Below, one piece after another: positions 27,796-57,343 of a stretch of DNA of 64,000 bases. The position numbers and the translations under genes are program-made. The stretch's first letter is position 1. Each line of letters starts with the position of its first letter. The stretch is from Eledone cirrhosa (Eukaryota), in contig OZ024740.1 of assembly GCA_964016885.1 (NCBI GenBank), positions 307,830,001 to 307,894,000 on the forward strand, given 5' to 3'. The notes beneath the pieces are model-generated. The model saw only the letters and a list, made by a program, of their open reading frames with translations. It searched no databases and was not told the origin of the DNA.

Positions 27796-30531
27796 GTAAC
27801 ACTAACTTCAAAAAACGTGACAATCACCTGATCACCTATAGATCGGGGTAGATTATATCCTTACCAGGTAGATTATATCCTTACCAGAAGACGTGACAGA
27901 GTGTCTGTTGTAAACACTAAATCCCTCCCCCATGAAGAATGCACTTCCCAACATAGACTGATAATTAGCGACCTAATAGTCAGGACGAGACGTACTAGAC
28001 AACAGAAGAGGACTATCCTCAGGAGAAAAATATGGAAGCTAAAGGACCCCACAGCCAGAAATAAATTTAAAAGCATACTACTTGATGCTTTCGACAGTAA
28101 GGAAGAGGTAAGCAGACGAAAGAAAGTTCAAGCATGTTCTACAACGCGAGGACCAAAAACGTGAGGTGTTCAGGATTGCTAGGCAATGTGTCAAGGAAAA
28201 CCGTGATATTGTCGGGGAGAAGTGTGTACTTAATGATGACGGCGTACTTGCCATCACCGATGCTGATAGGAAGGTAGCTTGGAAGTGTCACTATGAAATG
28301 CTACTAAATGAGGAGAATAAATGGGAGAAAGACAGTCTCCCCCACATCGACCCAATAGAGGGACCAGCAGTGTTAGTCGAGGGTAGTATAATAAGTAAGG
28401 CAATCAAGGATATGAAGACGGGTAAGGCGGCTGGGCCTTCGGAAATAGTTGCTGAGATGCTGAAGGCATCTGGTACGGTGGGACACACCATGGTCACCCG
28501 GATAGTTAACCAAGTCGTACAGAATGGGGTTGTTCCGAAGGACTGGCGTAGCAGCATCATCGTTAACTGTTATAAGGGTAAAGGAGATGCCCTAGATAGG
28601 AGTAACTATAGAGGCATTAAATTAATCGACCAGGTCATGATAGTCACGGAAAAAGTAATAGCGCAACTAATCAGAGAGAGAATTGATCTAGATGAAATGC
28701 AGTTCGGGTTTGTGTCAGACAAAAGTACCACAGACGCTCTTTTCATTGTACGACAACTACAGGAGCAGTACCTAGCTAAAAGTAAACCCCTCTACTTAGC
28801 TTTTGTCGACTTGGAGAAAGCCTTCGACAGAGTCCCCCGTTCCATTATCTGGTGGGCTCTTAGAAAACTAGGTGTTGACGAATGGCTTGTGAGAGCTATA
28901 CAAGCCATGTATAAAGAAACAATCAGCAAGGTTAGAATTAACAACGAATATAGTGAAGAGTTTAGCGTAAAAGTTGGCGTCCATCAGGACTCTGTTCTCA
29001 GCCCCTTACTATTTATTATTGCCCTTCAGGCTATAACAGAGGAGTTCAAGACCGGCTGCCCATGGGAACTCCTATACGCAGATGACCTAACACTCATAGC
29101 TGAATCAATGGCCGAGCTAGAGAAGAAATTCCAAACATGGAAGCACGGCCTAGAATCAAAAGGCCTTAACATTAACCTGGCTAAGACCAAAGTTCTAGTT
29201 TGTAGGAAAGAAAATAATGCGGCGGTCCCTTCCGGGAAGTGGGCATGCTCAGTGTGTAGGAAAGGCGTAGGTAGAAACTCCATTTTGTGTCCCAAATGCA
29301 AAGTATGGGTACATAAAAGATGTAGTGGGATCACAGGTAAGTTAACTAAGAACATAGATTTTACATGTGGCCGGTGCTCTGGTGCAATAAGTAGCAGCAA
29401 GTGCCCAGAGAATACTAGCTCATTCCATTGCACAGATGGTTCTATAGAAATAGTGGACAGCTTCCGTTACCTGGGTGACAAAATCAGCAGTGGGGGAGGG
29501 TGCTCTGAAAGTACAGTAGCTAGAGTCAGAACTGGATGGAAAAAGTTCAGAGAGCTTATACCACTATTAGCCGCTAAAGGGTTCTCCCTAAAAATGAAAG
29601 GCAGGTTGTATGATGCCTGCATACGAACAGCAATGTTGCATGGCAGTGAGACCTGGGCATTGTGTGCAGAGGATATACGCAGACTAGAGAGGAACGAAGT
29701 TTGCATGCTCCGCTGGATGTGTAATAGTAATATACGTGAACGGCAAAGCATAAACGAACTAAGGAAAAAATTAGAAATAAGAGGGATTAGATGTTGTTTA
29801 CTCGAGAGAAGGCTACGTTGGTATGGTCACGTAATGCGCATGAAAGACGACTGCTGTATAACAAAGTGCAGGGCAATAAAGATAGACGGTAGCCACGGAA
29901 TAGGCAGACCCAGAAAAACCTGGGACGAGCTGATAAATTCCGACCTCACACACTTACACCTCTCCAAGACAATGTCACTGGACCGAGACCTTTGGCGCTA
30001 CTCAGTAATAGAGAAGACCCGCCTTACCTAAATACAAAGTAAAACCTACTACAGTCAGTAGGCATCTCTAACAAAATACACCCCCATCCCACCACCCCAC
30101 CCCATCCACACCGCCCCTTTCAATGTAAAGCTATGTTGGTGCCACAACATCCAGGCCGAAACAAATGAGATCGTGTCGGTGTCACGACAAAAAACACACA
30201 GTCCACGCTGTAATGTGGCCGTGTAGGCAACATGGTAAAAACCTCCCAGCCCCACACCGTAAATGTGGTTGGTGTTAGGAAGGGCATCCAGCTGTAGAAA
30301 ACCCGCCAGACAGTCCACGCTGTAATGTGGCTGTGTAGGCAACACGGTAAAAACCTCCCAGCCCCACACTGTAAATGTGGTTGGTGTTAGGAAGGGCATC
30401 CAGCTGTAGAAAATCCGCCAGACAGTCCTATGCGAGCAAGACAATCACTCTTGCCTCAAGTGGGAAAACCCTCGTCCAAACCCATGCAAGCGTGGAACAC
30501 GGACGTTAAACGTTGATGATGATGATGATGA

Positions 30532-36000: not shown

Positions 36001-37162
36001 TTTTTAATTAGATTTTTCTTCTTCTCCTTGATTTTTCTCTTTAAAAATTCCATTGATTTATATGAGTGGTTATTATAATCAATGATTTCATGTGTATAAG
36101 TAAGATTTTTCCATTTTCGTTTTTTACGAGAATTATGTGAGATGGCCTTCGTGGGGACTAAATAACAATATCCATAATTTTATTTGACTTAACAATATGC
36201 AATGAAAAACATAAAAGAATTGGTTTCCTTATTACCATAGCATCCATTGTATTGTCAATGTATAAAAAGTAAAATGCTTCAGATATATCTAGAATATTTG
36301 CAATATGTTACTTTTGTTGACTACCAGTAAAACTGTTCTATAATTATATCTGTGTGAAAAGAATTCATATTTTAAGTTACCTTTTAAAACATTACACCAA
36401 AATACTCATGGAAAATAGAGAAAGTATTATCCAAGACACTATACACTAATACAAAAACAATTTGCTTTACCTGAATAGTCATATGTAAATTTGGAAGGAA
36501 ATGATCATAATTTATGTATCTGTTATGCGTGAAATGAAGAAAACTCTTCTGTTTCCTTGAAAGAAATTATATAGGATGAAGTAAAATGGGTTCGAAATAT
36601 AGATAGAAATAAAATATAGTAAAAACTTATTCATGTACAAATTAGATTATCTTCAGTATTCGTGGTTATATTAGGTTTCTGGTCATGCCACAAGAGATAA
36701 ATTGCAGTAGAATGTTATTCTAAGTGTGAATTCTCAATCTTAACAGGTTTATTGTGAACAATGTTACATGTGTGTGGGTGTGTGTACGTACAAAGACATC
36801 AAACACAAATTTAGTGCCTACTTATAAAATATGCTAGTGTACTATATAGTGATGATAAAATATGCTAATGTACTCTATTAACTATAAAATGTGCTAATGT
36901 ATTATATTTGTAGTGCACCTGAGTACTGTACACAATAATTTTCATTAATATTATTACTAACTATAAAATATGCTAGTGTACTATATAGTAACTATAAGAT
37001 ATGCTAGTGTACTATAATATATGCTAGTGTACTATATAGTAACTATAATATATGCTAGTGTACTGTATAGTAACTATAAAATATGCTAATGTACTATATA
37101 GTAACTATAATATATGCTAGTGTACTAGATAGTAACTATAAGATATGCTAGTGTACTATAAT

Positions 37163-37322
37163 TGTTTCTACTTTAGGCACAAGGCCAGCAATTACCCAGT
37201 GCATTACTGGTACTTTATTTTATCGACCCCTCGGCGGGATTTGAACTCAGATCGTAAAGGGACGTAACTATGCTGGAAAGCATGGCGTCCGACCCTCTAC
37301 CGATACTGCCAATCCACTGCCC
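37163..37322 (-). mobile_element. SINE family B inside the satellite
   Basis: Family B head and tail; forms the 3' part of a TSD-flanked chimera. Confidence 0.85.
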
Positions 37323-37326
37323 AAAA

Positions 37327-37477
37327 CAGTAAAACTCCCCGACCGACACTGTTCTCGACTAAGGGTCGCGCTCCAGCTGCGTCGGCGCACAACGTGTGCG
37401 TGCGCGACATGCACCGTACGCTTCGCACCAGATAAATGAACCACCGCTCGACGACGGCCCCGTCCCTTCTCAATCGA
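37327..37477 (-). pseudogene. 28S rRNA fragment (retrocopy)
   Basis: Minus strand ...GCGCGACCCTTAGTCGAGAACAGTGTCGGTCGGGGAGTTTTACTG resembles conserved eukaryotic LSU GCGCGACCC...GACAGTG.CAGG.GGGGAGTTTGACTGGGGCGG (compared from memory); upstream TCTGGTGCGAAGCG also fits. Confidence 0.7.
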
Positions 37478-39644
37478 GTACTATAATATATGCTAGTGTA
37501 CTACATAGTAACTATAATATATGCTAGTGTACTACATAGTAACTATAATATATGCTAGTGTACTACATAGTAACTATAATATATGCTAGTGTACTACATA
37601 GTAACTATAAGATATGCTAGTGTACTACATAGTAACTATAATATATGCTAGTGTACTACACAGTAACTATAATATATGCTAGTGTACTACATAGTAACTA
37701 TAATATATGCTAGTGTACTGTATAGTAACTATAATATATGCTAGTGTACTACATAGTAACTATAAGATATGCTAGTGTACTACATAGTAACTATAATATA
37801 TGCTAGTGTACTACATAGTAACTATAATATATGCTAGTGTACTACATAGTAACTATAAGAAATGCTAGTGTACTACATAGTAACTATAATATATGCTAGT
37901 GTACTACATAGTAACTATAATATATGCTAGTGTACTACATAGTAACTATAAGATATGCTAGTGTACTGTATAGTAACTATAATATATGCTAGTGTACTAC
38001 ATAGTAACTATAATATATGCTAGTGTACTACATAGTAACTATAAGATATGCTAGTGTACTGTATAGTAACTATAATATATGCTAGTGTACTGTATAGTAA
38101 CTATAATATATGCTAGTGTACTATATAGTAACTATAATATATGCTAGTGTACTGTATAGTAACTATAATATATGCTAGTGTACTACATAGTAACTATAAG
38201 ATATGCTAGTGTACTACATAGTAACTATAATATATGCTAGTGTACTACATAGTAACTATAATATATGCTAGTGTACTACATAGTAACTATAAGATATGCT
38301 AGTGTATTACATAGTAACTATAATATATGCTAGTGTACTGTATAGTAACTATAATATATGCTAGTGTACTGTATAGTAACTATAATATATGCTAGTGTAC
38401 TGTATAGTAACTATAATATATGCTAGTGTACTACATAGTAACTATAATATATGCTAGTGTACTATATATTAACTATAATATATGCTAGTGTACTGTATAG
38501 TAACTATAATATATGCTAGTGTACTACATAGTAACTATAATATATGCTAGTGTACTATATAGTAACTATAAGATATGCTAGTGTACTACATAGTAACTAT
38601 AATATATGCTAGTGTACTACATAGTAACTATAATATATGCTAGTGTACTATATTGTAACTATAAAATATGCTAGTGTACTACATAGTAACTATAATATAT
38701 GCTAGTGTACTGTATAGTAACTATAATATATGCTAGTGTACTATATTGTAACTATAATATATGCTATTGTACTACATAGTAACTATAATATATGCTAGTG
38801 TACTATATTGTAACTATAATATATGCTAGTGTACTACATAGTAACTATAATATATGCTAGTGTACTGTATAGTAACTATAATATATGCTAGTGTACTATA
38901 TTGTAACTATAAAATATGCTAGTGTACTACATAGTAACTATAATATATGCTAGTGTACTGTATAGTAACTATAATATATGCTAGTGTACTATATTGTAAC
39001 TATAATATATGCTAGTGTACTACATAGTAACTATAATATATGCTAGTGTAGTACATAGTAACTATAATATATGCTAGTGTACTACATAGTAACTATAATA
39101 TATGCTAGTGTACTATATAGTAACTATAATATATGCTAGTGTACTATATAGTAACTATAATATATGCTAGTGTACTATATAGTAACTATAATATATGCTA
39201 GTGTACTACATAGTAACTATAATATATGCTAGTGTACTACATAGTAACTATAAGATATGCTAGTGTACTATATTGTAACTATAATATATGCTAGTGAACT
39301 GTATAGTAACTATAATATATGCTAGTGTACTATATTGTAACTATAATATATGCTAGTGTACTGTATAGTAACTATAATATATGCTAGTGTACTATATTGT
39401 AACTATAATATATGCTAGTGAACTGTATAGTAACTATAATATATGCTAGTGTACTACATAGTAACTATAATATATGCTAGTGTACTACATAGTAACTATA
39501 ATATATGCTAGTGTACTACATAGTAACTATAATATATGCTAGTGTACTACATAGTAACTATAATATATGCTAGTGTACTACATAGTAACTATAATATATG
39601 CTAGTGTACTATATAGTAACTATAATATATGCTAGTGTACTATA

Positions 39645-39820
39645 TCTATATATCTAAAACAGAGAATGTCTGTCTGTCTGATTCCTTACAACTCAAGAAC
39701 CACCCAACGGATTGTTTTCAAACTTTACACATTTAATACTTATGGTCGTGTGAGTGTTTTGAGCAAAAGAAATTTCAAATTTCCAATGCCCTAGGGACCG
39801 CATTAGGTGCCGAATGTCGT
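39645..39820 (+). mobile_element. Helitron-like 5' fragment in the satellite (copy 1)
   Basis: A|TCTATATATCTAAAACAGAGAATGTCTGTCTGTCTG start; identical to 42635-42810. Confidence 0.55.
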
Positions 39821-42634
39821 GTATAGTAACTATAAAATATGCTAGTGTAATTAGCATATTTAATATGCATATTTAAATATGCATAGTAACTATAATATAT
39901 GCTAGTGTACTATATAGTAACTATAATATATGCTAGTGTACTGTATAGTAACTATAATATATGCTAGTGTACTACATAGTAACTATAAAATATGCTAGTG
40001 TACTATATATTAACTATAATATATGCTAGTGTACTACATAGTAACTATAATATATGCTAGTGTACTACATAGTAACTATAATATATGCTAGTGTACTACA
40101 TAGTAACTATAATATATGCTAGTGTACTACATAGTAACTATAATATATGCTAGTGTACTACATAGTAACTATAATATATGCTAGTGCACTACATAGTAAC
40201 TATAAGATATGCTAGTGTACTACATAGTAACTATAATATATGCTAGTGTACTATATTGTAACTATAATATATGCTAGTGTACTACATAGTAACTATAATA
40301 TATGCTAGTGTACTGTATAGTAAATATAATATATGCTAGTGTACTACATAGTAACTATAATATATGCTAGTGTACTACATAGTAACTATAATATATGCTA
40401 GTGTACTACATAGTAACTATAATATATGCTAGTGTACTACATAGTAACTATAATATATGCTAGTGTACTGTATAGCAACTATAATATATGCTAGTGTACT
40501 ACATAGTAACTATAATATATGCTAGTGTACTACATAGTAACTATAATATATGCTAGTGTACTATATATTAACTATAATATATGCTAGTGTACTGTATAGT
40601 AACTATAATATATGCTAGTGTACTACATAGTAACTATAATATATGCTAGTGTACTGTATAGTAACTATAATATATGCTAGTGTACTACATAGTAACTATA
40701 ATATATGCTAGTGTACTTACTATATTGTAACTATAAAATATGCTAGTGTACTGCATAGTAACTATAATATATGCTAGTGTACTGTATAGTAACTATAATA
40801 TATGCTAGTGTACTACATAGTAACTATAAAATATGCTAGTGTACTGTATAGTAACTATAATATATGCTAGTGTACTATATAGTAACTATAATATATGATA
40901 GTGTACTATATAGTAACTATAATATATGATAGTGTACTATATAGTAACTATAATATATGCTAGTGTACTATATTGTAACGATAATATATGCTAGTTTACT
41001 ACATAGTAACTATACTATATGCTAGTGTACTGTATAGTAACTATAATATATGCTAGTGTACTATATAGTAACTATAAAATATGCTAGTGTACTACATAGT
41101 AACTATGATATATGCTAGTGTACTATATTGTAACTATAAAATATGCTAGTGTACTGTATAGTAACTATAATATATGCTAGTGTACTATATAGTAACTATA
41201 ATATATGCTAGTGTACTGTATAGTAACTATAATATATGCTAGTGTACTATATAGTAACTATAATATATGCTAGTGTACTGTATAGTAACTATAATATATG
41301 CTAGTGTACTATATTGTCACTATAACATATGCTAGTGTACTACATAGTGACTATAATATATGCTAGTGTACTGTATAGTAACTATAATATATGCTAGTGT
41401 ACTGTATAGTAACTATAATATATGCTAGTGTACTATATAGTAACTATAATATATGCTAGTGTACTATATAGTAACAATAATATATGCTAGTGTACTATAT
41501 AGTAACTATATGATATGCTAGTGTACTATATAGTAACTATAATATATGCTAGTGTATTATATATTAACTATAATATATGCTAGTGTACTATATAGTAACT
41601 ATAATATATGCTAGTGTACTGTATATTAACTATAATATATGCTAGTGTACTATATAGTAACTATAATATATGCTAGTGTACTATATAGTAACTATAAGAT
41701 ATGATAGTGTATATAATATATGCTAGTGTACTATATAGTAATTATAATGTATGCTAGTGTACTGTATAGTAACTATAATATATGCTAGTGTACTATATAG
41801 TAACTATAATATATGCTAGTGTACTACATAGTAACTATAAGATATGCTAGTGTACTACATAGTAACTATAATATATGCTAGTGTACTACATAGTGACTAT
41901 AATATATGCTAGTGTACTGTATAGTAACTATAATATATGCTAGTGTACTGTATAGTAACTATAATATATGCTAGTGTACTATATAGTAACTATAATATAT
42001 GCTAGTGTACTATATAGTAACAATAATATATGCTAGTGTACTATATAGTAACTATATGATATGCTAGTGTACTATATAGTAACTATAATATATGCTAGTG
42101 TATTATATATTAACTATAATATATGCTAGTGTACTATATAGTAACTATAATATATGCTAGTGTACTGTATAGTAACTATAATATATGCTAGTGTACTGTA
42201 TAGTAACTATAATATATGCTAGTGTACTACATAGTAACTATAAGATATGCTAGTGTACTACATAGTAACTATAATATATGCTAGTGTACTACATAGTAAC
42301 TATAATATATGCTAGTGTACTACATAGTAACTATAATATATGCTAGTGTACTACATAGTAACTATAATATATGCTAGTGTACTACATAGTAACTATAATA
42401 TATGCTAGTGAACTGTATAGTAACTATAATATATGCTAGTGTACTACATAGTAACTATAATATAAGCTAGTGTACTACATAGTAACTATAATATATGCTA
42501 GTGTAGTACATAGTAACTATAATATATGCTAGTGTACTACATAGTAACTATAATATATGCTAGTGTACTATATAGTAACTATAATATATGCTAGTGTACT
42601 ATATAGTAACTATAATATATGCTAGTGTACTATA

Positions 42635-42810
42635 TCTATATATCTAAAACAGAGAATGTCTGTCTGTCTGATTCCTTACAACTCAAGAACCACCCAACGG
42701 ATTGTTTTCAAACTTTACACATTTAATACTTATGGTCGTGTGAGTGTTTTGAGCAAAAGAAATTTCAAATTTCCAATGCCCTAGGGACCGCATTAGGTGC
42801 CGAATGTCGT
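42635..42810 (+). mobile_element. Helitron-like 5' fragment in the satellite (copy 2)
   Basis: Identical to 39645-39820, offset 2990 bp. Confidence 0.55.
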
Positions 42811-43506
42811 GTATAGTAACTATAAAATATGCTAGTGTAATTAGCATATTTAATATGCATATTTAAATATGCATAGTAACTATAATATATGCTAGTGTAC
42901 TATATAGTAACTATAATATATGCCAGTGTACTATATAGTAACTATAAAATATGCTAGTGTACTACATAGTAACTATAATATATGCTAGTGTACTACATAG
43001 TAACTATAATATATGCTAGTGTACTACATAGTAACTATAATATATGCTAGTGTACTACATAGTAACTATAATATATGCTAGTGTACTACATAGTAACTAT
43101 AATATATGCTAGTGTACTACATAGTAACTATAATATATGCTAGTGTACTATATAGTAACTATAATATATGCTAGTGTACTGTATAGTAACTATAATATAT
43201 GCTAGTGTACTACATAGTAACTATAAAATATGCTAGTGTACTATATATTAACTATAATATATGCTAGTGTACTACATAGTAACTATAATATATGCTAGTG
43301 TACTACATAGTAACTATAATATATGCTAGTGTACTACATAGTAACTATAATATATGCTAGTGTACTATATAGTAACTATAATATATGCTAGTGTACTGCA
43401 TAGTAACTATAATATATCCTAGTGTACTACATGGTAACTATAATATATGCGAGTGTACTACATAGTAACTATAAAATATGCTAGTGAACTATATAGTAAC
43501 TATAAT

Positions 43507-43596
43507 TGTTTCTACTTTTGGCACAAGGCCAGCAATTATCCCAGTACATTACTGGTACTTTATTTTATCGACCTTGTAAGGATGAAAGGCAAAGTT
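43507..43596 (-). mobile_element. 5'-truncated SINE family B in the satellite
   Basis: 3' ~90 bp of family B, flanked by duplicated actatatagtaactataat. Confidence 0.8.
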
Positions 43597-44849
43597 ATAC
43601 TATATAGTAACTATAATATATGCTAGTGTACTACATAGTAAGTATATTATATGCTAGTGTACTATATAGTAACTATAATATATGCTAGTGTATTATATAT
43701 TAACTATAATATATGCTAGTGTACTACATAGTAACTATAATATATGCTAGTGTTCTACATAGTAACTATAATATATGCTAGTGTACTATATGTATATTAA
43801 CTATAATATATGCTAGTGTACTGTATATTAAATATAATATATGCTAGTGTACTATATAGTAACTATAATATATGCTGGTGTACTATATATTAACTATAAT
43901 ATATGCTAGTGTACTATATAGTAACTATAACATATGCTAGTGTACTATATAGTAACAATAATATATGCTAGTGTACTACATAGCAACTATAATATATGCT
44001 AGTGTACTGTATATTAAATATAATATATGCTAGTGTACTACATAGTAACTATAATATATGCTAGTGTACTGTATAGTAACTATAATATATGCTAGTGTAT
44101 TATATATTAACTATAATATATGCTAGTGTACTACGTAGTAACTATAATATATGCTAGTGTACTATATGTATATTAACTATAATATATGCTAGTGTACTGT
44201 ATATTAAATATAATATATGCTAGTGTACTACATAGCAACTATAATATATGCTAGTGTACTGTATAGTAACTATAATATATGCTAGTGTACTATATATTAA
44301 CTATAATATATGCTAGTGTACTACATAGTAACTATAATATATGCTAGTGTACTATATTGTAACTATAATATATTCTAGTGTACTATATATTAACTATAAT
44401 ATATGCTAGTGTACTATATAGTAACTATAATATATGCTAGTGTACTATATATTAACTATAATATATGCTAGTGTACTATATAGTAACTATAAAATATGCT
44501 AATATTGTAACTATACTATAGTGTACTATAGTAAATGACTTGTTATATAAATGGTAGCAAGTTAGATTGTTTTTGTTAGAGAGATTTGAGAGTAGGAGAG
44601 TGAAAAAGAAAAGAAAATGTTCGCTTATTGTGATGTTACCAAATAATAGTCTCTGTTGTTGTATAATGTTGATAAGCTGAAGTACTTAATGTTACAAATA
44701 TTGTATGAAAAATAAAACTGTTGTTGTGTTTGATTCTCCTGTATTTGTTGATGATGGTGTGGTGGTGGAGTAAATGAGGGGTGGGGACGCAGGCTGGTAT
44801 TGGTTGGCAAAATAATGCAACTGCCAGCACTCAGTAGTGGATCTGAGTT

Positions 44850-53287: not shown

Positions 53288-56200
53288 TCATCATCATCAT
53301 CATCATCAACGTTTAACGTCCGTGTTCCACGCTTGCATGGGTTTGGACGGGGGTAGTCCCACTTGAGGCAAGAGTGATTGTCTTGCTCGCATAGGACTGT
53401 CTGGCAGGTTTTCTACAGTTGGATGCCCTTCCTAACACCAACCACATTTACAGTGTGGGTCTGGGAGGTTTTTACCGTGTTGCCTACACGGCCACATTAC
53501 AGCGTGGACTGTGTGTTTTTTTGTCGTGACACCTACACGATCTCATTTGTTTCGGCCTGGATGGCGCGGCACCAACATAACTTTACATAGAACGGGGTGG
53601 TGTGGATGGGGTGGGGGTGGTGGCGGGACGGGGTGTAGTTTGTTAGAGATGCCTACTGGCAAGGCGGGTCTTCTCTGTTACTGAGTACCGCCAAAGGTCA
53701 CGGTCCAGTGACATTGTCTTGGAGAGGTGTAAGTGTGTGAGGTCGGAGTTTATCAGCTCATCCCATGTTTTTCTAGGTCTGCCTATTCCGTGGCTACCGT
53801 CTATCTTTATTGCCCTGCACTTTGTAATACAGCTATCGACTTTCATGCGCATCACGTGTCCATACCAACGCAGCCTTCTCTCGAGTAAACAACATCTGAT
53901 CCCTCTTATCTCTAATTTTTTCCTTAGTTCGTTTATGCTTTGCCGTTCACGTATATTACTGTTACACATCCAGCGGAGCATGCAAGCTTCGTTCCTCTCT
54001 AGTCTGCGTATATCCTCTGCACACAATGCCCAGGTCTCACTACCATGCAACATTGCTGTTCGTATGCAGGCATCGTACAACCTGCCTTTCATTTTTAGGG
54101 AGAACCCTTTAGCAGCTAATAGTGGTATAAGCTCTCTGAACTTTTTCCAACCAGTTCTGACTCTAGCTACAGTACTTTCAGAGCACCCTCCCCCACTGCT
54201 GATTTTATCGCCCAGGTAACGGAAGCTGTCCACTATTTCTATAGAACCCTCTGCGCAATTGAAAGAGCTAGTATTTTGTGGGCACTTGCTGCTACTTATT
54301 GCACCAGAACACCGGCCACATGTAAAGTCTATGTTCTTAGTTAGCTTACCTGTGATCCCACTACATCTTTTATGCACCCATACTTTGCATTTAGGACATA
54401 AGATGGAGTTTCTACCTACGCCTTTCCTACATACCGAGCACGACCATTTCCCAGAAGGGACCGCCGCCTTGTTTTCTTTCCTACAAACTAGAACTTTGGT
54501 CTTAGCCAGGTTAATTTTAAGTCCTTTTGACTCTAGGCCGTGCTTCCATGTTTGGAATTTCTTCTCTAGCTCGGCCATTGATTCCGCTATGAGTGTCAGG
54601 TCGTCTGCGTATAGGAGTTCCCATGGGCAGCCTGTCTTGAACTCCTCTGTTATAGCCTGAAGGGCAATAATAAATAGTAGGGGGCTGAGAACAGAGCCCT
54701 GATGGACGCCAACTTTTACGCTAAACTCTTCACTATATTCGTTGTTAATTCTAACCTTGCTGACTGTTTCTTTATACATGGCTTGTATAGCCCTCACAAG
54801 CCATTCGTCAACGCCTAGTTTTCTAAGAGCCCACCAGATAATGGAGCGGGGGACTCTGTCGAAGGCTTTCTCCAGGTCGACAAAAGCTAAGTAGAGGGGT
54901 TTACCTTTAGCTAGGTACTTCTCCTGTAGTTGTCGTACTATAAAAAGAGCGTCTGTGGTGCTTTTGCCTGACACAAACCCGAACTGCATTTCATCTAGAT
55001 CAATTCTCTCTCTGATTAGTTGCGCTATTACTTTTTCCGTGACCTTCATGACCTGGTCGATTAATTTAATGCCTCTATAGTTACTCCTATCTAGGGCGTC
55101 TCCTTTACCCTTATAACAGTTAACGATGATGCTGCTATGCCAGTCCTTCGGAACAACCCCATTCTGTACGACTTGGTTAACTATGCGGGTGACCATGGTG
55201 TGTCCCACCGTGCCAGATGCCTTCAGCATCTCAGCAACTATTTCCGAAGGCCCAGCCGCCTTACCAGTCTTCATATCCTTGATTGCCTTACTTATTATAC
55301 TCCCCTCGACTAACACTGCTGGTCCCTCTATCGGGTCGATATGGGGGAGACTGTCTTTCTCCCATTTATTCTCCTCATTTAGTAGCCTTTCATAGTGACA
55401 CTTCCAAGCTACCTTCTTATCAGTGTCGGTGATGGCAAGTATGCCATCATCGTTAAGTACACACTTCTCCCCGACAATATCACGGTTTTCCTTGACGCAT
55501 TGCCTGGCAATCCTGAACACCTCACGTTTTTGGTCATCGCGTTGTAGAACATGCTTGAACTTTCTTTCCTCAGCTTCCCTTCTTGCTAAGTACACTTCTC
55601 TCCTAGCTTCCCTCCTGGCCACTTGATAGTCTACTCTACTTCCCCCATCCCGCCATACTTTCCAAGCCTGCTTTTTGGCCTTAATTGACCCCTCCACCCT
55701 ATTGTTCCACCACCATGTTACTCTCCTCCTGCCTACAGGCCTGCTCCAGCCACAGACTTCGTCTGTCGCCAACAGCAGGTTTGCTTTCAGAAATTTCCAC
55801 TGTCCCTCTATATTGTCCGATTCTAGATGCTCTTCCTTACTGTCGAAAGCATCAAGTAATATGCTTTGAAATTTATTTCTGGCTGTGGGGTCCTTTAGTT
55901 TCCATATTTTCCTCCTGAGGATAGTCCTCTTCTGCTGTCGGGTACGTCTCGTCCTGACTATGAGGTCGCTAATTATCAGTCTATGTTGGGAGGTGCATTC
56001 TTCATGGGGGAGGGATTTAGTGTTTACAACAGACACTCTGTCACGTCTTCTGGTAAGGATATAATCTACCTGGCTTGTGTGTTCCCCGGATCTATAGGTA
56101 ATCAGGTGATTGTCACGTTTTTTGAAGTTAGTGTTACAGATAGTTAGGTTATTTGCATCACAGTATTCCAGAATTCTGGAGCCTTCCTCATTTCTAGTAC

Positions 56201-57343
56201 CAAACCCATAGCCTCCATGGATTTCGTCGTAGCCGTCACAATGTTGTCCAACGTGACCATTTAGGTCGCCTGCAATAATTATATAGTCACTGTCAGATAT
56301 TTGGGAGGTAGTTAGCAACAGTGTCTCATAGAATCTGTCTATAGGGCAGTCCGGATTGGGGTGCGTACGCAGATATTACTGTCACCGTAGTTCTATTGAG
56401 GACAAGTCTTATTTTAATTATTCTGTCGTTCACTCTATTTACGTCTATTATCTTATCTGCCCACTTTTCTGCTACCATGATTCCTACTCCACCCAGCCCA
56501 TCGTCGTTTCCCACCCAGAAAAGCTTATAACATCGTTTTTTACCCTCAATGAATCTAGCAGACCCACCCCTCCACCTGGTCTCTTGAATACAACAAACAT
56601 CGACCTCCTTACGTTCAAGCATTTCTACAACCTCGTTAGCGCGACCCTTTAGGGTGCCTACATTTATGGTACCAACTCTGAAGTTTTGGGTTGCGTTTGG
56701 AGGGTGGGGGTGGTGGGGGGCGGGAGGAGATAGGGTTATGTTAGCCATCCGCGGACGAAACAAAGAGGAGTGCTCGCATTTTCGTCCACGAGGTGAATTT
56801 GACTTTAACTTTGGCATTTTCGCTCTGGGCGTCCAGATTTTTCTCTCCCTTCCACTCTCCAGGATTCCGCAGTCCGTCCGTCCATCCATCCATCCATCAT
56901 ATATCGAAGGCAACCGGGCAAGCGATAGTATAGGCCTCTGGCTTATGATTTGGTCCGCGTAATAATAATAATGGTGATGCGTGGGGGTGGGGGTGGGGGG
57001 CTCTGGCTTATAATAATGGTGGTGATGCGGGGGGGGGGGCTCTGGCTTATGATTGGTCCACGTATTAAGTATGGTGGCGTGTGGGGGCGGGAGGGAGGGG
57101 TGTGGGGTAGCTAGCTGGAAGGTTATGAATGTTTAACAAGCGATTTAACAAAAAGCAAAACTGCAAGATTTGTTCTGTTCAATACGACAAAAACACCGTA
57201 TTTAAACCTTAAATAGATAACAAAAAAATACAGATTTCGGATTTTGCGAAATTGGATGTTTGTTTGGACTATGTACGAAATTGAGCGTGGAAATGGAGAG
57301 AAGAATTTGTACTTTACGATTTACATGAGTCCATCATAGAAAA
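53288..57343 (-). mobile_element. near-intact full-length RTE LINE (copy B)
   Basis: 5' UTR, APE-RT ORF, 3' UTR with GTTAGGAAGGGCATCC module, (GAT)n tail, (TA)n on both sides. Confidence 0.95.
53643..56913 (-). CDS. RTE polyprotein: APE endonuclease + RT + PHD-type finger, split by one frameshift near 56340
   Basis: GTINVGTL..CIQETRW..SAYAPQ (ORF 56326..56913) continues as GDLNGHVG..SQVDYIL..SQHRL..FVDLEKAFD..HQGSVLSP..YADD..GRPRKTW (ORF 53643..56318). The true start codon is uncertain. Confidence 0.9.

What the first reader, a model, noticed from the sequence alone, without database searches (positions are those of the whole stretch)
37153..37487. TSD-flanked 28S rRNA-SINE chimeric retrocopy
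Seen: between two copies of gtactataat lie a family B SINE and, 5' of it in the same orientation, a 150-bp GC-rich segment resembling 28S rRNA. The rRNA part stops at GGGGAGTTTTACTG, where 28S normally continues GGGCGGT, essentially the SINE's first bases (GGGC[A/G]GT). Established: LINE RTs make bipartite retrocopies by template switching (e.g. U6-L1). Inference: a microhomology-guided jump from the SINE 5' end onto rRNA in one insertion event. If multi-copy, it would be an rRNA-headed SINE.
Basis: partly seen in the sequence, partly recalled or inferred. Interest (0 to 1): 0.7.

Follow-up and report, generated by a model that had tools for sequence, protein, structure and literature searches.

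The report
Ribosomal RNA scrap fused to SINE
A 153-base piece of the animal's own 28S ribosomal RNA sits directly in front of a full-length short retrotransposon (SINE) inside a satellite array, once in the genome; it likely formed when a retrotransposon's copying enzyme jumped from the SINE RNA onto ribosomal RNA, a known kind of accident rather than a new mobile element.

Summary
The observation largely holds. Window 37327-37479 (minus strand) is 146/153 identical to the genome's own 28S rDNA. It lies 5' of, and in the same sense as, a full-length young tRNA-type SINE (37158-37322).

Two corrections. (1) Four extra T lie between the halves, so the join is not a clean microhomology join. The 7-nt match is still unusual: 7 of 9,326 rRNA positions equal it. 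(2) The 10-bp TSD is weak evidence, because the satellite unit, SINE tail and rRNA start can produce it with no duplication.

The junction is single-copy, so this is not an rRNA-headed SINE family. Best reading (about 0.75): one insertion with a template jump. Against it, the rRNA half carries 7 substitutions and the SINE half none (p 0.006-0.03). This leaves about 0.15 for a later SINE insertion that deleted part of an older rRNA copy.

28S-retroelement chimeras are known from human L1 (PMC13174262). Six more exist in this genome. An unchecked scan note reports 5S-SINE chimeras on other DNA of this genome.

The parts
37327..37479 (-). 28S (LSU) rRNA fragment, 153 nt, sense; ends after the first base of a 5-nt hairpin loop (the P-loop/helix 80 by recall)
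   Evidence: 146/153 identical to own rDNA L002:1501-1653; Rfam RF02543 alignment and structure line
37323..37326 (-). Four T belonging to neither partner
   Evidence: TTTT precedes only 2 of 543 exact-head SINE copies; 23 of 30 sampled heads are preceded by A
37158..37322 (-). Full-length tRNA-type SINE of a young subfamily, with a 25-bp internal deletion near 37230 that recurs in other copies; ATTAT tail overlaps the target
   Evidence: 0 substitutions against L080, L090, L101; 543 exact 43-nt heads in the genome
37300..37311 (-). Pol III A-box-like motif
   Evidence: motif match, consensus recalled
37238..37248 (-). Pol III B-box-like motif
   Evidence: motif match, consensus recalled
37153..37162 (+). 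Candidate TSD copy at the SINE tail; up to 5 bases shared with the tail
37478..37487 (+). Candidate TSD copy at the rRNA start; 2 bases shared with the rRNA
36823..37160 (.). Degenerate left part of a 31-bp satellite, holding one 20-bp variant unit at 37009
37480..44501 (.). Main 31-bp satellite array (about 225 units), host of the insertion

Best explanation
This is a single-copy fusion of a 28S rRNA fragment to a full-length SINE, likely made in one target-primed reverse transcription event. Inferred steps: a LINE reverse transcriptase primed at the satellite's ATTAT site, which matches the SINE tail, and copied the SINE RNA to its 5' end. It then added four untemplated A, or copied a short U tail on the rRNA fragment. 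The cDNA end could pair over 7 nt (one G-T wobble) with the rRNA loop that follows the break, and the enzyme copied 153 nt of 28S before the 5' end joined the target through a 2-nt overlap. The product is predicted to be a dead end as a chimera, because the internal Pol III promoter would start at the SINE head and leave out the rRNA part.
For: Shown: (1) The SINE has no duplication of its own at its head. In this family 21 of 30 sampled copies have a 13-24-bp duplication, mostly beginning at or next to the ATTAT tail; 20 of them end within 22 nt of the head. Here the only partner lies beyond the rRNA piece. (2) Polarity and sense match known chimeras: 28S/L1, n=18, 83% sense, median 269 nt (PMC13174262 passages). 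(3) The class recurs in this genome: 6 of 14 other short 28S pieces overlapping this region are fused at their 3' end to a retroelement in the same sense. These are L039 (truncated copy of the same SINE), L038 (another SINE-like element), L041 (an RT-encoding LINE) and L032/L033/L035. (4) A pairing run of 7 or more with the SINE start occurs at only 7 of 9,326 rRNA positions, and at 1 of 1,402 in the 3' part of the LSU. (5) Extra bases at the 5' join are common in this family (11 of 20 copies with a near TSD). R2 RT adds up to 5 untemplated nucleotides before jumping (PMC4117753 passages). (6) A second SINE piece in the same array is inserted at the same satellite register with a 19-bp TSD.
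Against: (1) The rRNA half has 7/153 substitutions against 19 rDNA copies that are invariant at those sites; the SINE half has 0/163 (Fisher p 0.006; p 0.026 if a 3-base cluster counts once; p 0.013 for non-CpG sites only). Relatives' rDNA contigs carry the rDNA state at 3-4 of these sites, so the changes are derived, and no diverged donor copy was found. (2) One derived G-to-T change makes a second TTTT eight bases upstream, which could have templated the insert if the rRNA copy was already mutated DNA. (3) The 10-bp TSD is shorter than the family's 13-24 bp and can be explained without duplication. (4) None of 16 short pieces from other 28S regions showed a recognised fusion (small local reference set). 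(5) The partner LINE was not identified.
Confidence: 0.75

Rival explanations
1. Two steps. An older tailless 28S retrocopy sat in the satellite. A young SINE later inserted at the ATTAT site just downstream, its cDNA end annealed to the genomic copy's GGGCGGT, and the rest of the rRNA piece was deleted, leaving a TTTT patch copied from nearby.
For: Divergence asymmetry of 7/153 vs 0/163. The 7-nt match fits DNA-DNA joining equally well. The TTTT repeats a derived variant just upstream. Solo 28S retrocopies with their own TSD exist (L028, 19 bp).
Against: It needs a young SINE to hit one of 172 equivalent sites in the array (one other hit seen) and to delete rather than duplicate. My rough estimate is under 0.01 expected events per genome, against 6 of 14 comparable pieces being fusions.
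Confidence: 0.15
2. RNA-level ligation before retrotransposition, as for U6/L1: a cleaved, U-tailed 28S fragment was ligated to SINE RNA and the chimeric RNA was inserted.
For: Four T at the junction recall the 4-6 T of U6/L1 junctions (PMC6789731 passages). 28S breakpoints recur in this genome: three pieces end at L002 position 1588, two at 1575, and five start at 1484-1488.
Against: RtcB needed a 5'-OH partner and gave 0 of 26 full-length products with a 5'-triphosphate. This SINE is full length, and a primary Pol III transcript would carry a triphosphate (established knowledge). In U6 the T's are the RNA's own end. Ligation does not explain the 7-nt match.
Confidence: 0.07
3. A multi-copy rRNA-headed SINE family, of which this is one member.
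For: A different 28S fragment does occur three times in front of another element (L032/L033/L035).
Against: The junction pattern matches once. Only 1 of 31 copies of the rRNA end motif at up to 2 mismatches continues into the SINE. The copy's diagnostic variant is unique. The promoter lies downstream of the rRNA part.
Confidence: 0.02

Closest known systems
[quoted passage not shown]
   Same: A sense 28S fragment of 50-482 nt fused 5' of a retroelement in one insertion; recurrent start region; ascribed to template switch or RNA ligation.
   Different: The partner here is a tRNA-type SINE in an invertebrate.
U6/L1 and snRNA/Alu chimeric retrocopies (PMC6789731 and PMC4494074; passages read)
   Same: Bipartite, sense, host RNA at the 5' end, T-run at the junction.
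   Different: U6's T's are genome-encoded and its partner is usually 5'-truncated. Here the T's are in neither partner and the SINE is full length.
SINE28 (PMC4994717; abstract and outline only)
   Same: Dispersed 28S-derived retro-sequence.
   Different: [quoted passage not shown] This is an internal fragment, in a single copy, fused to another SINE.
HaSE3 and SINEU, RNA-headed SINE families born by template switch (PMC3272025, PMC4494074; passages read)
   Same: Proposed origin: a jump from a SINE RNA onto a structural RNA.
   Different: Those amplified into families; this junction did not, and 28S gives no internal Pol III promoter (established knowledge).
R2 end-to-end template jumping (PMC4117753; passages read)
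   Same: [quoted passage not shown]
   Different: In R2 the microhomology is between the added bases and the acceptor's end. Here it lies between the SINE start and the rRNA just past the break.

Membership tests
Chimeric (bipartite) retrocopy | Host-RNA part 5' of a retroelement, directly joined, same sense | tested here: met
   a 4-nt insert at the join
Chimeric (bipartite) retrocopy | One TSD flanks both parts | tested here: inconclusive
   A perfect 10-mer is present, but a standard satellite unit with a 4-5-bp target deletion gives the same sequence; the needed 20-bp variant unit occurs once more, 144 bp away
Chimeric (bipartite) retrocopy | Neither part has its own TSD | tested here: met
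   No repeat of the head-proximal bases after the tail, and no second repeat around the rRNA part
Chimeric (bipartite) retrocopy | Both parts of the same age, or absent together at the empty site | tested here: inconclusive
   Divergence differs, p 0.006-0.026; no ortholog or allele was available
rRNA-headed SINE family (SINE3, SINE28, HaSE3 type) | Multiple dispersed copies sharing the junction | tested here: not met
rRNA-headed SINE family (SINE3, SINE28, HaSE3 type) | The head is transcribed together with the body | not testable with these tools
   No RNA run listed; the A/B boxes lie downstream of the rRNA part
RtcB-ligated chimera (U6/L1 type) | 2',3'-cyclic phosphate donor and 5'-OH acceptor | not testable with these tools
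   A full-length SINE head argues against a 5'-OH end (inference)
tRNA-derived SINE | A and B boxes, short length, simple-repeat tail, TSDs, high copy number | tested here: met
   Rfam found no tRNA match in L080; Repbase or Dfam family name not determined

The most novel reading that the evidence does not exclude
The TTTT is the fossil U tail of a 28S decay intermediate cut in the peptidyl-transferase P-loop. With the other fusions, which share breakpoints (one 28S fragment captured three times, at different times, by three subfamilies of another element), this genome would hold a readable archive of defined germline rRNA cleavage products that LINE reverse transcriptases pick up end-to-end.
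Probability: 0.2. Interest if true: 0.55.

Novelty: new member of a known kind. Interest (0 to 1): 0.3.

Why it matters
Alone it is a well-preserved example of a known accident: it shows that capture of 28S fragments onto retroelement 5' ends, catalogued for human L1, also happens with an invertebrate tRNA-SINE. It shows the step by which RNA-headed SINEs are thought to be born, caught here as a failed birth. The wider value is the set: at least seven 28S fusions from one stretch of 28S, with shared breakpoints. That set makes the question of template switch versus RNA ligation testable outside mammals.

Tried and rejected
Rfam on the window stretch gave only chance hits and no LSU call; identity rests on the genome's own rDNA.

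Ancestral rDNA state as the cause of the 7 substitutions: rejected for the sites covered, since contigs of X4 and X8 carry the present rDNA letters and so does X1.

A diverged rDNA pseudogene as donor: none found (in one search only 40 of 60 candidates were scored).

TTTT as part of the SINE consensus: rejected (2 of 543; about 6 expected from base composition).

Read support: no RNA holder listed. No contig piece spanned the junction in X1, X5, X4 or X8; X6, X7, X23 and X24 laid nothing. This is no test.

Partner LINE sharing the SINE tail: not found among the fetched loci or the window.

A ribozyme at the 5' end of the L032/L033/L035 partner: no Rfam hit.

Searches for a published cephalopod rRNA-SINE chimera listed none; PMC13282606 has no 'rRNA' or 'chimer' in its main text. 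A sequence look-up of earlier scan notes found nothing.

Full report
Anatomy. On the minus strand the locus reads: satellite, a 10-mer, 153 nt of GC-rich sequence (37479-37327), TTTT (37326-37323), a SINE (37322-37158), the same 10-mer, satellite. The host is a 31-bp satellite array, 36823-44501. The SINE resembles octopus SINEs by recall, and earlier scan notes call the genome octopus-like; I did not establish the species.

The rRNA part. A search of the own genome gave 41 matches, 40 of 60 candidates scored. The best non-self hits are 146/153 identical and lie in LSU rDNA (Rfam RF02543). In the Rfam alignment the fragment ends after the first base of a five-base hairpin loop, which I recall as the P-loop. 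The rDNA continues GGGCGGT; the SINE begins GGGCAGT. Counting contiguous pairing to the SINE cDNA end with G-T wobble allowed, a run of 7 or more occurs at 7 of 9,326 positions of 18S, 5.8S and the 28S span including its insertion. TTTT precedes 2 of 543 exact heads, and 23 of 30 sampled heads follow an A, so it is not part of the SINE.

The SINE part. It has A- and B-box-like motifs. It is identical to young copies L080, L090 and L101 except for a 25-bp deletion that recurs in copies of several subfamilies. Among 30 exact-head copies on one contig, 21 had a 13-24-bp duplication (at most 1 mismatch), 2 had only 7-9 bp and 7 had none found. Of the 20 with the duplication near the head, 11 had 1-22 extra bases at the 5' join. 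The window copy has no such duplication at its head.

The TSD. The 10-mer occurs at both ends and once more in the array. Up to five of its bases can come from the SINE tail and two from the rRNA start. A standard satellite unit with a 4-5-bp deletion yields the same string. A true 10-bp duplication needs a 20-bp variant unit, which exists 144 bp away. I rate the two readings about equal; both are compatible with one break. A second, truncated SINE in the array sits at the same register with a clear 19-bp duplication, which shows that the array is a normal target.

Copy number. The junction pattern matched once. Of 31 copies of the rRNA end motif at up to 2 mismatches, only this one continues into the SINE. 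A diagnostic variant of this copy is unique. It is not a family.

Context. The 41 matches are the window, 25 long rDNA copies and 14 short loci (one hit twice). Six of the 14 are fused at their 3' end to a retroelement in the same sense. L039 carries a truncated copy of the same SINE with a 2-nt overlap. L038 carries another SINE-like element and has the same 28S break as L039. L041 carries a LINE matching the window's RT ORFs. L032, L033 and L035 carry nearly the same 28S fragment (L002 1330/1336-1588) in front of the 5' end of three subfamilies of a short element, with different states of an rRNA expansion segment, which suggests independent captures. Sense for the non-coding partners is inferred from their tails. 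Of 20 loci fetched for other 28S regions, 16 were short pieces and none showed a recognised fusion, with only a small local reference set; the other 4 (long rDNA remnants, a tandem array, or R2-site copies) were set aside.

Against the simple reading. The rRNA half has 7 substitutions, the SINE half none (p 0.006; 0.026 with a cluster counted once). Relatives' contigs carry the present rDNA letters at the covered sites. One derived change creates a second TTTT just upstream of the insert. This fits a two-step history: an old 28S copy, then a SINE insertion with deletion joined at the 7-nt match. That history needs a hit on one of 172 sites plus a deletion; by my rough estimate it is several hundred times rarer a priori than co-insertion. 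I give it 0.15.

Mechanism. Most likely a LINE RT copied the SINE RNA from the satellite target, added four A or met a short U tail, was held on the rRNA loop by 7 base pairs, and copied on. Untemplated addition and jumping are shown for R2 RT (PMC4117753 passages). RtcB ligation needs a 5'-OH partner (PMC6789731 passages), which a full-length Pol III transcript would lack. All mechanistic steps are inferred; the partner LINE was not found. No read evidence for or against was obtained.

Known status. 28S/L1 chimeras are catalogued in human (PMC13174262 passages; its tables were not read). snRNA-Alu chimeras and RNA-headed SINE families are known. SINE28 differs (abstract; review passages). Searches listed no cephalopod case. 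An unchecked scan note describes 5S-SINE chimeras elsewhere in this genome. Verdict: real, single-copy, a new member of a known kind; interest 0.3.

Noticed in passing
L102, L103, L104 (= L035, L033, L032; G000 C4:287.78 Mb, C2:393.75 Mb, C4:102.72 Mb): Nearly the same 28S fragment (L002 1330/1336-1588) sits in front of the 5' end of three different subfamilies of a 0.4-0.65-kb element, mostly ATGT-tailed, with different expansion-segment states. This looks like three independent captures of a defined rRNA fragment, and is more interesting than the finding itself.
   Followed up: partly
L039:1528-1705, L038, L041: Further 28S fusions: to a truncated copy of the same SINE, to a GAT-tailed SINE-like element (same 28S break as L039), and to a 5'-truncated LINE.
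   Followed up: partly
L029, L031, L036, L037, L038: Five dispersed 28S pieces of different ages begin at L002 1484-1488, a possible cleavage or RT-stop hot spot. L029 also has a 5' inversion.
   Followed up: no
L028:1464-1681: Tailless 28S retrocopy with a clean 19-bp TSD.
   Followed up: partly
window 43507-43598: 5'-truncated copy of the same SINE in the same satellite at the same register, with a 19-bp TSD (43488-43506 / 43599-43617).
   Followed up: yes
L156:7150-8382; L002:1-1170: Assembled rDNA units carry an insertion of about 1.2 kb at the R2 target site (site recalled), starting with a short duplicated 28S stretch. L143 and L144 show a related 3' end.
   Followed up: no
L147 (G000 C6:50.98-51.26 Mb): Tandem array of a 70-nt 28S piece; already noted by the scan (e1-8813805).
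   Followed up: no
window 28112-30028 (+) and 53646-56375 (-): LINE ORFs with an RT domain followed by a PHD finger (Pfam); the longer one also has a weak endonuclease hit.
   Followed up: partly
L043-L071: A deletion of about 25 bp between short G-runs recurs in SINE copies of several subfamilies, perhaps an RT skip. Several loci also show tandem 41-45-nt repeats of the SINE head (L072; C1:435.16 Mb; C2:33.65 Mb).
   Followed up: no
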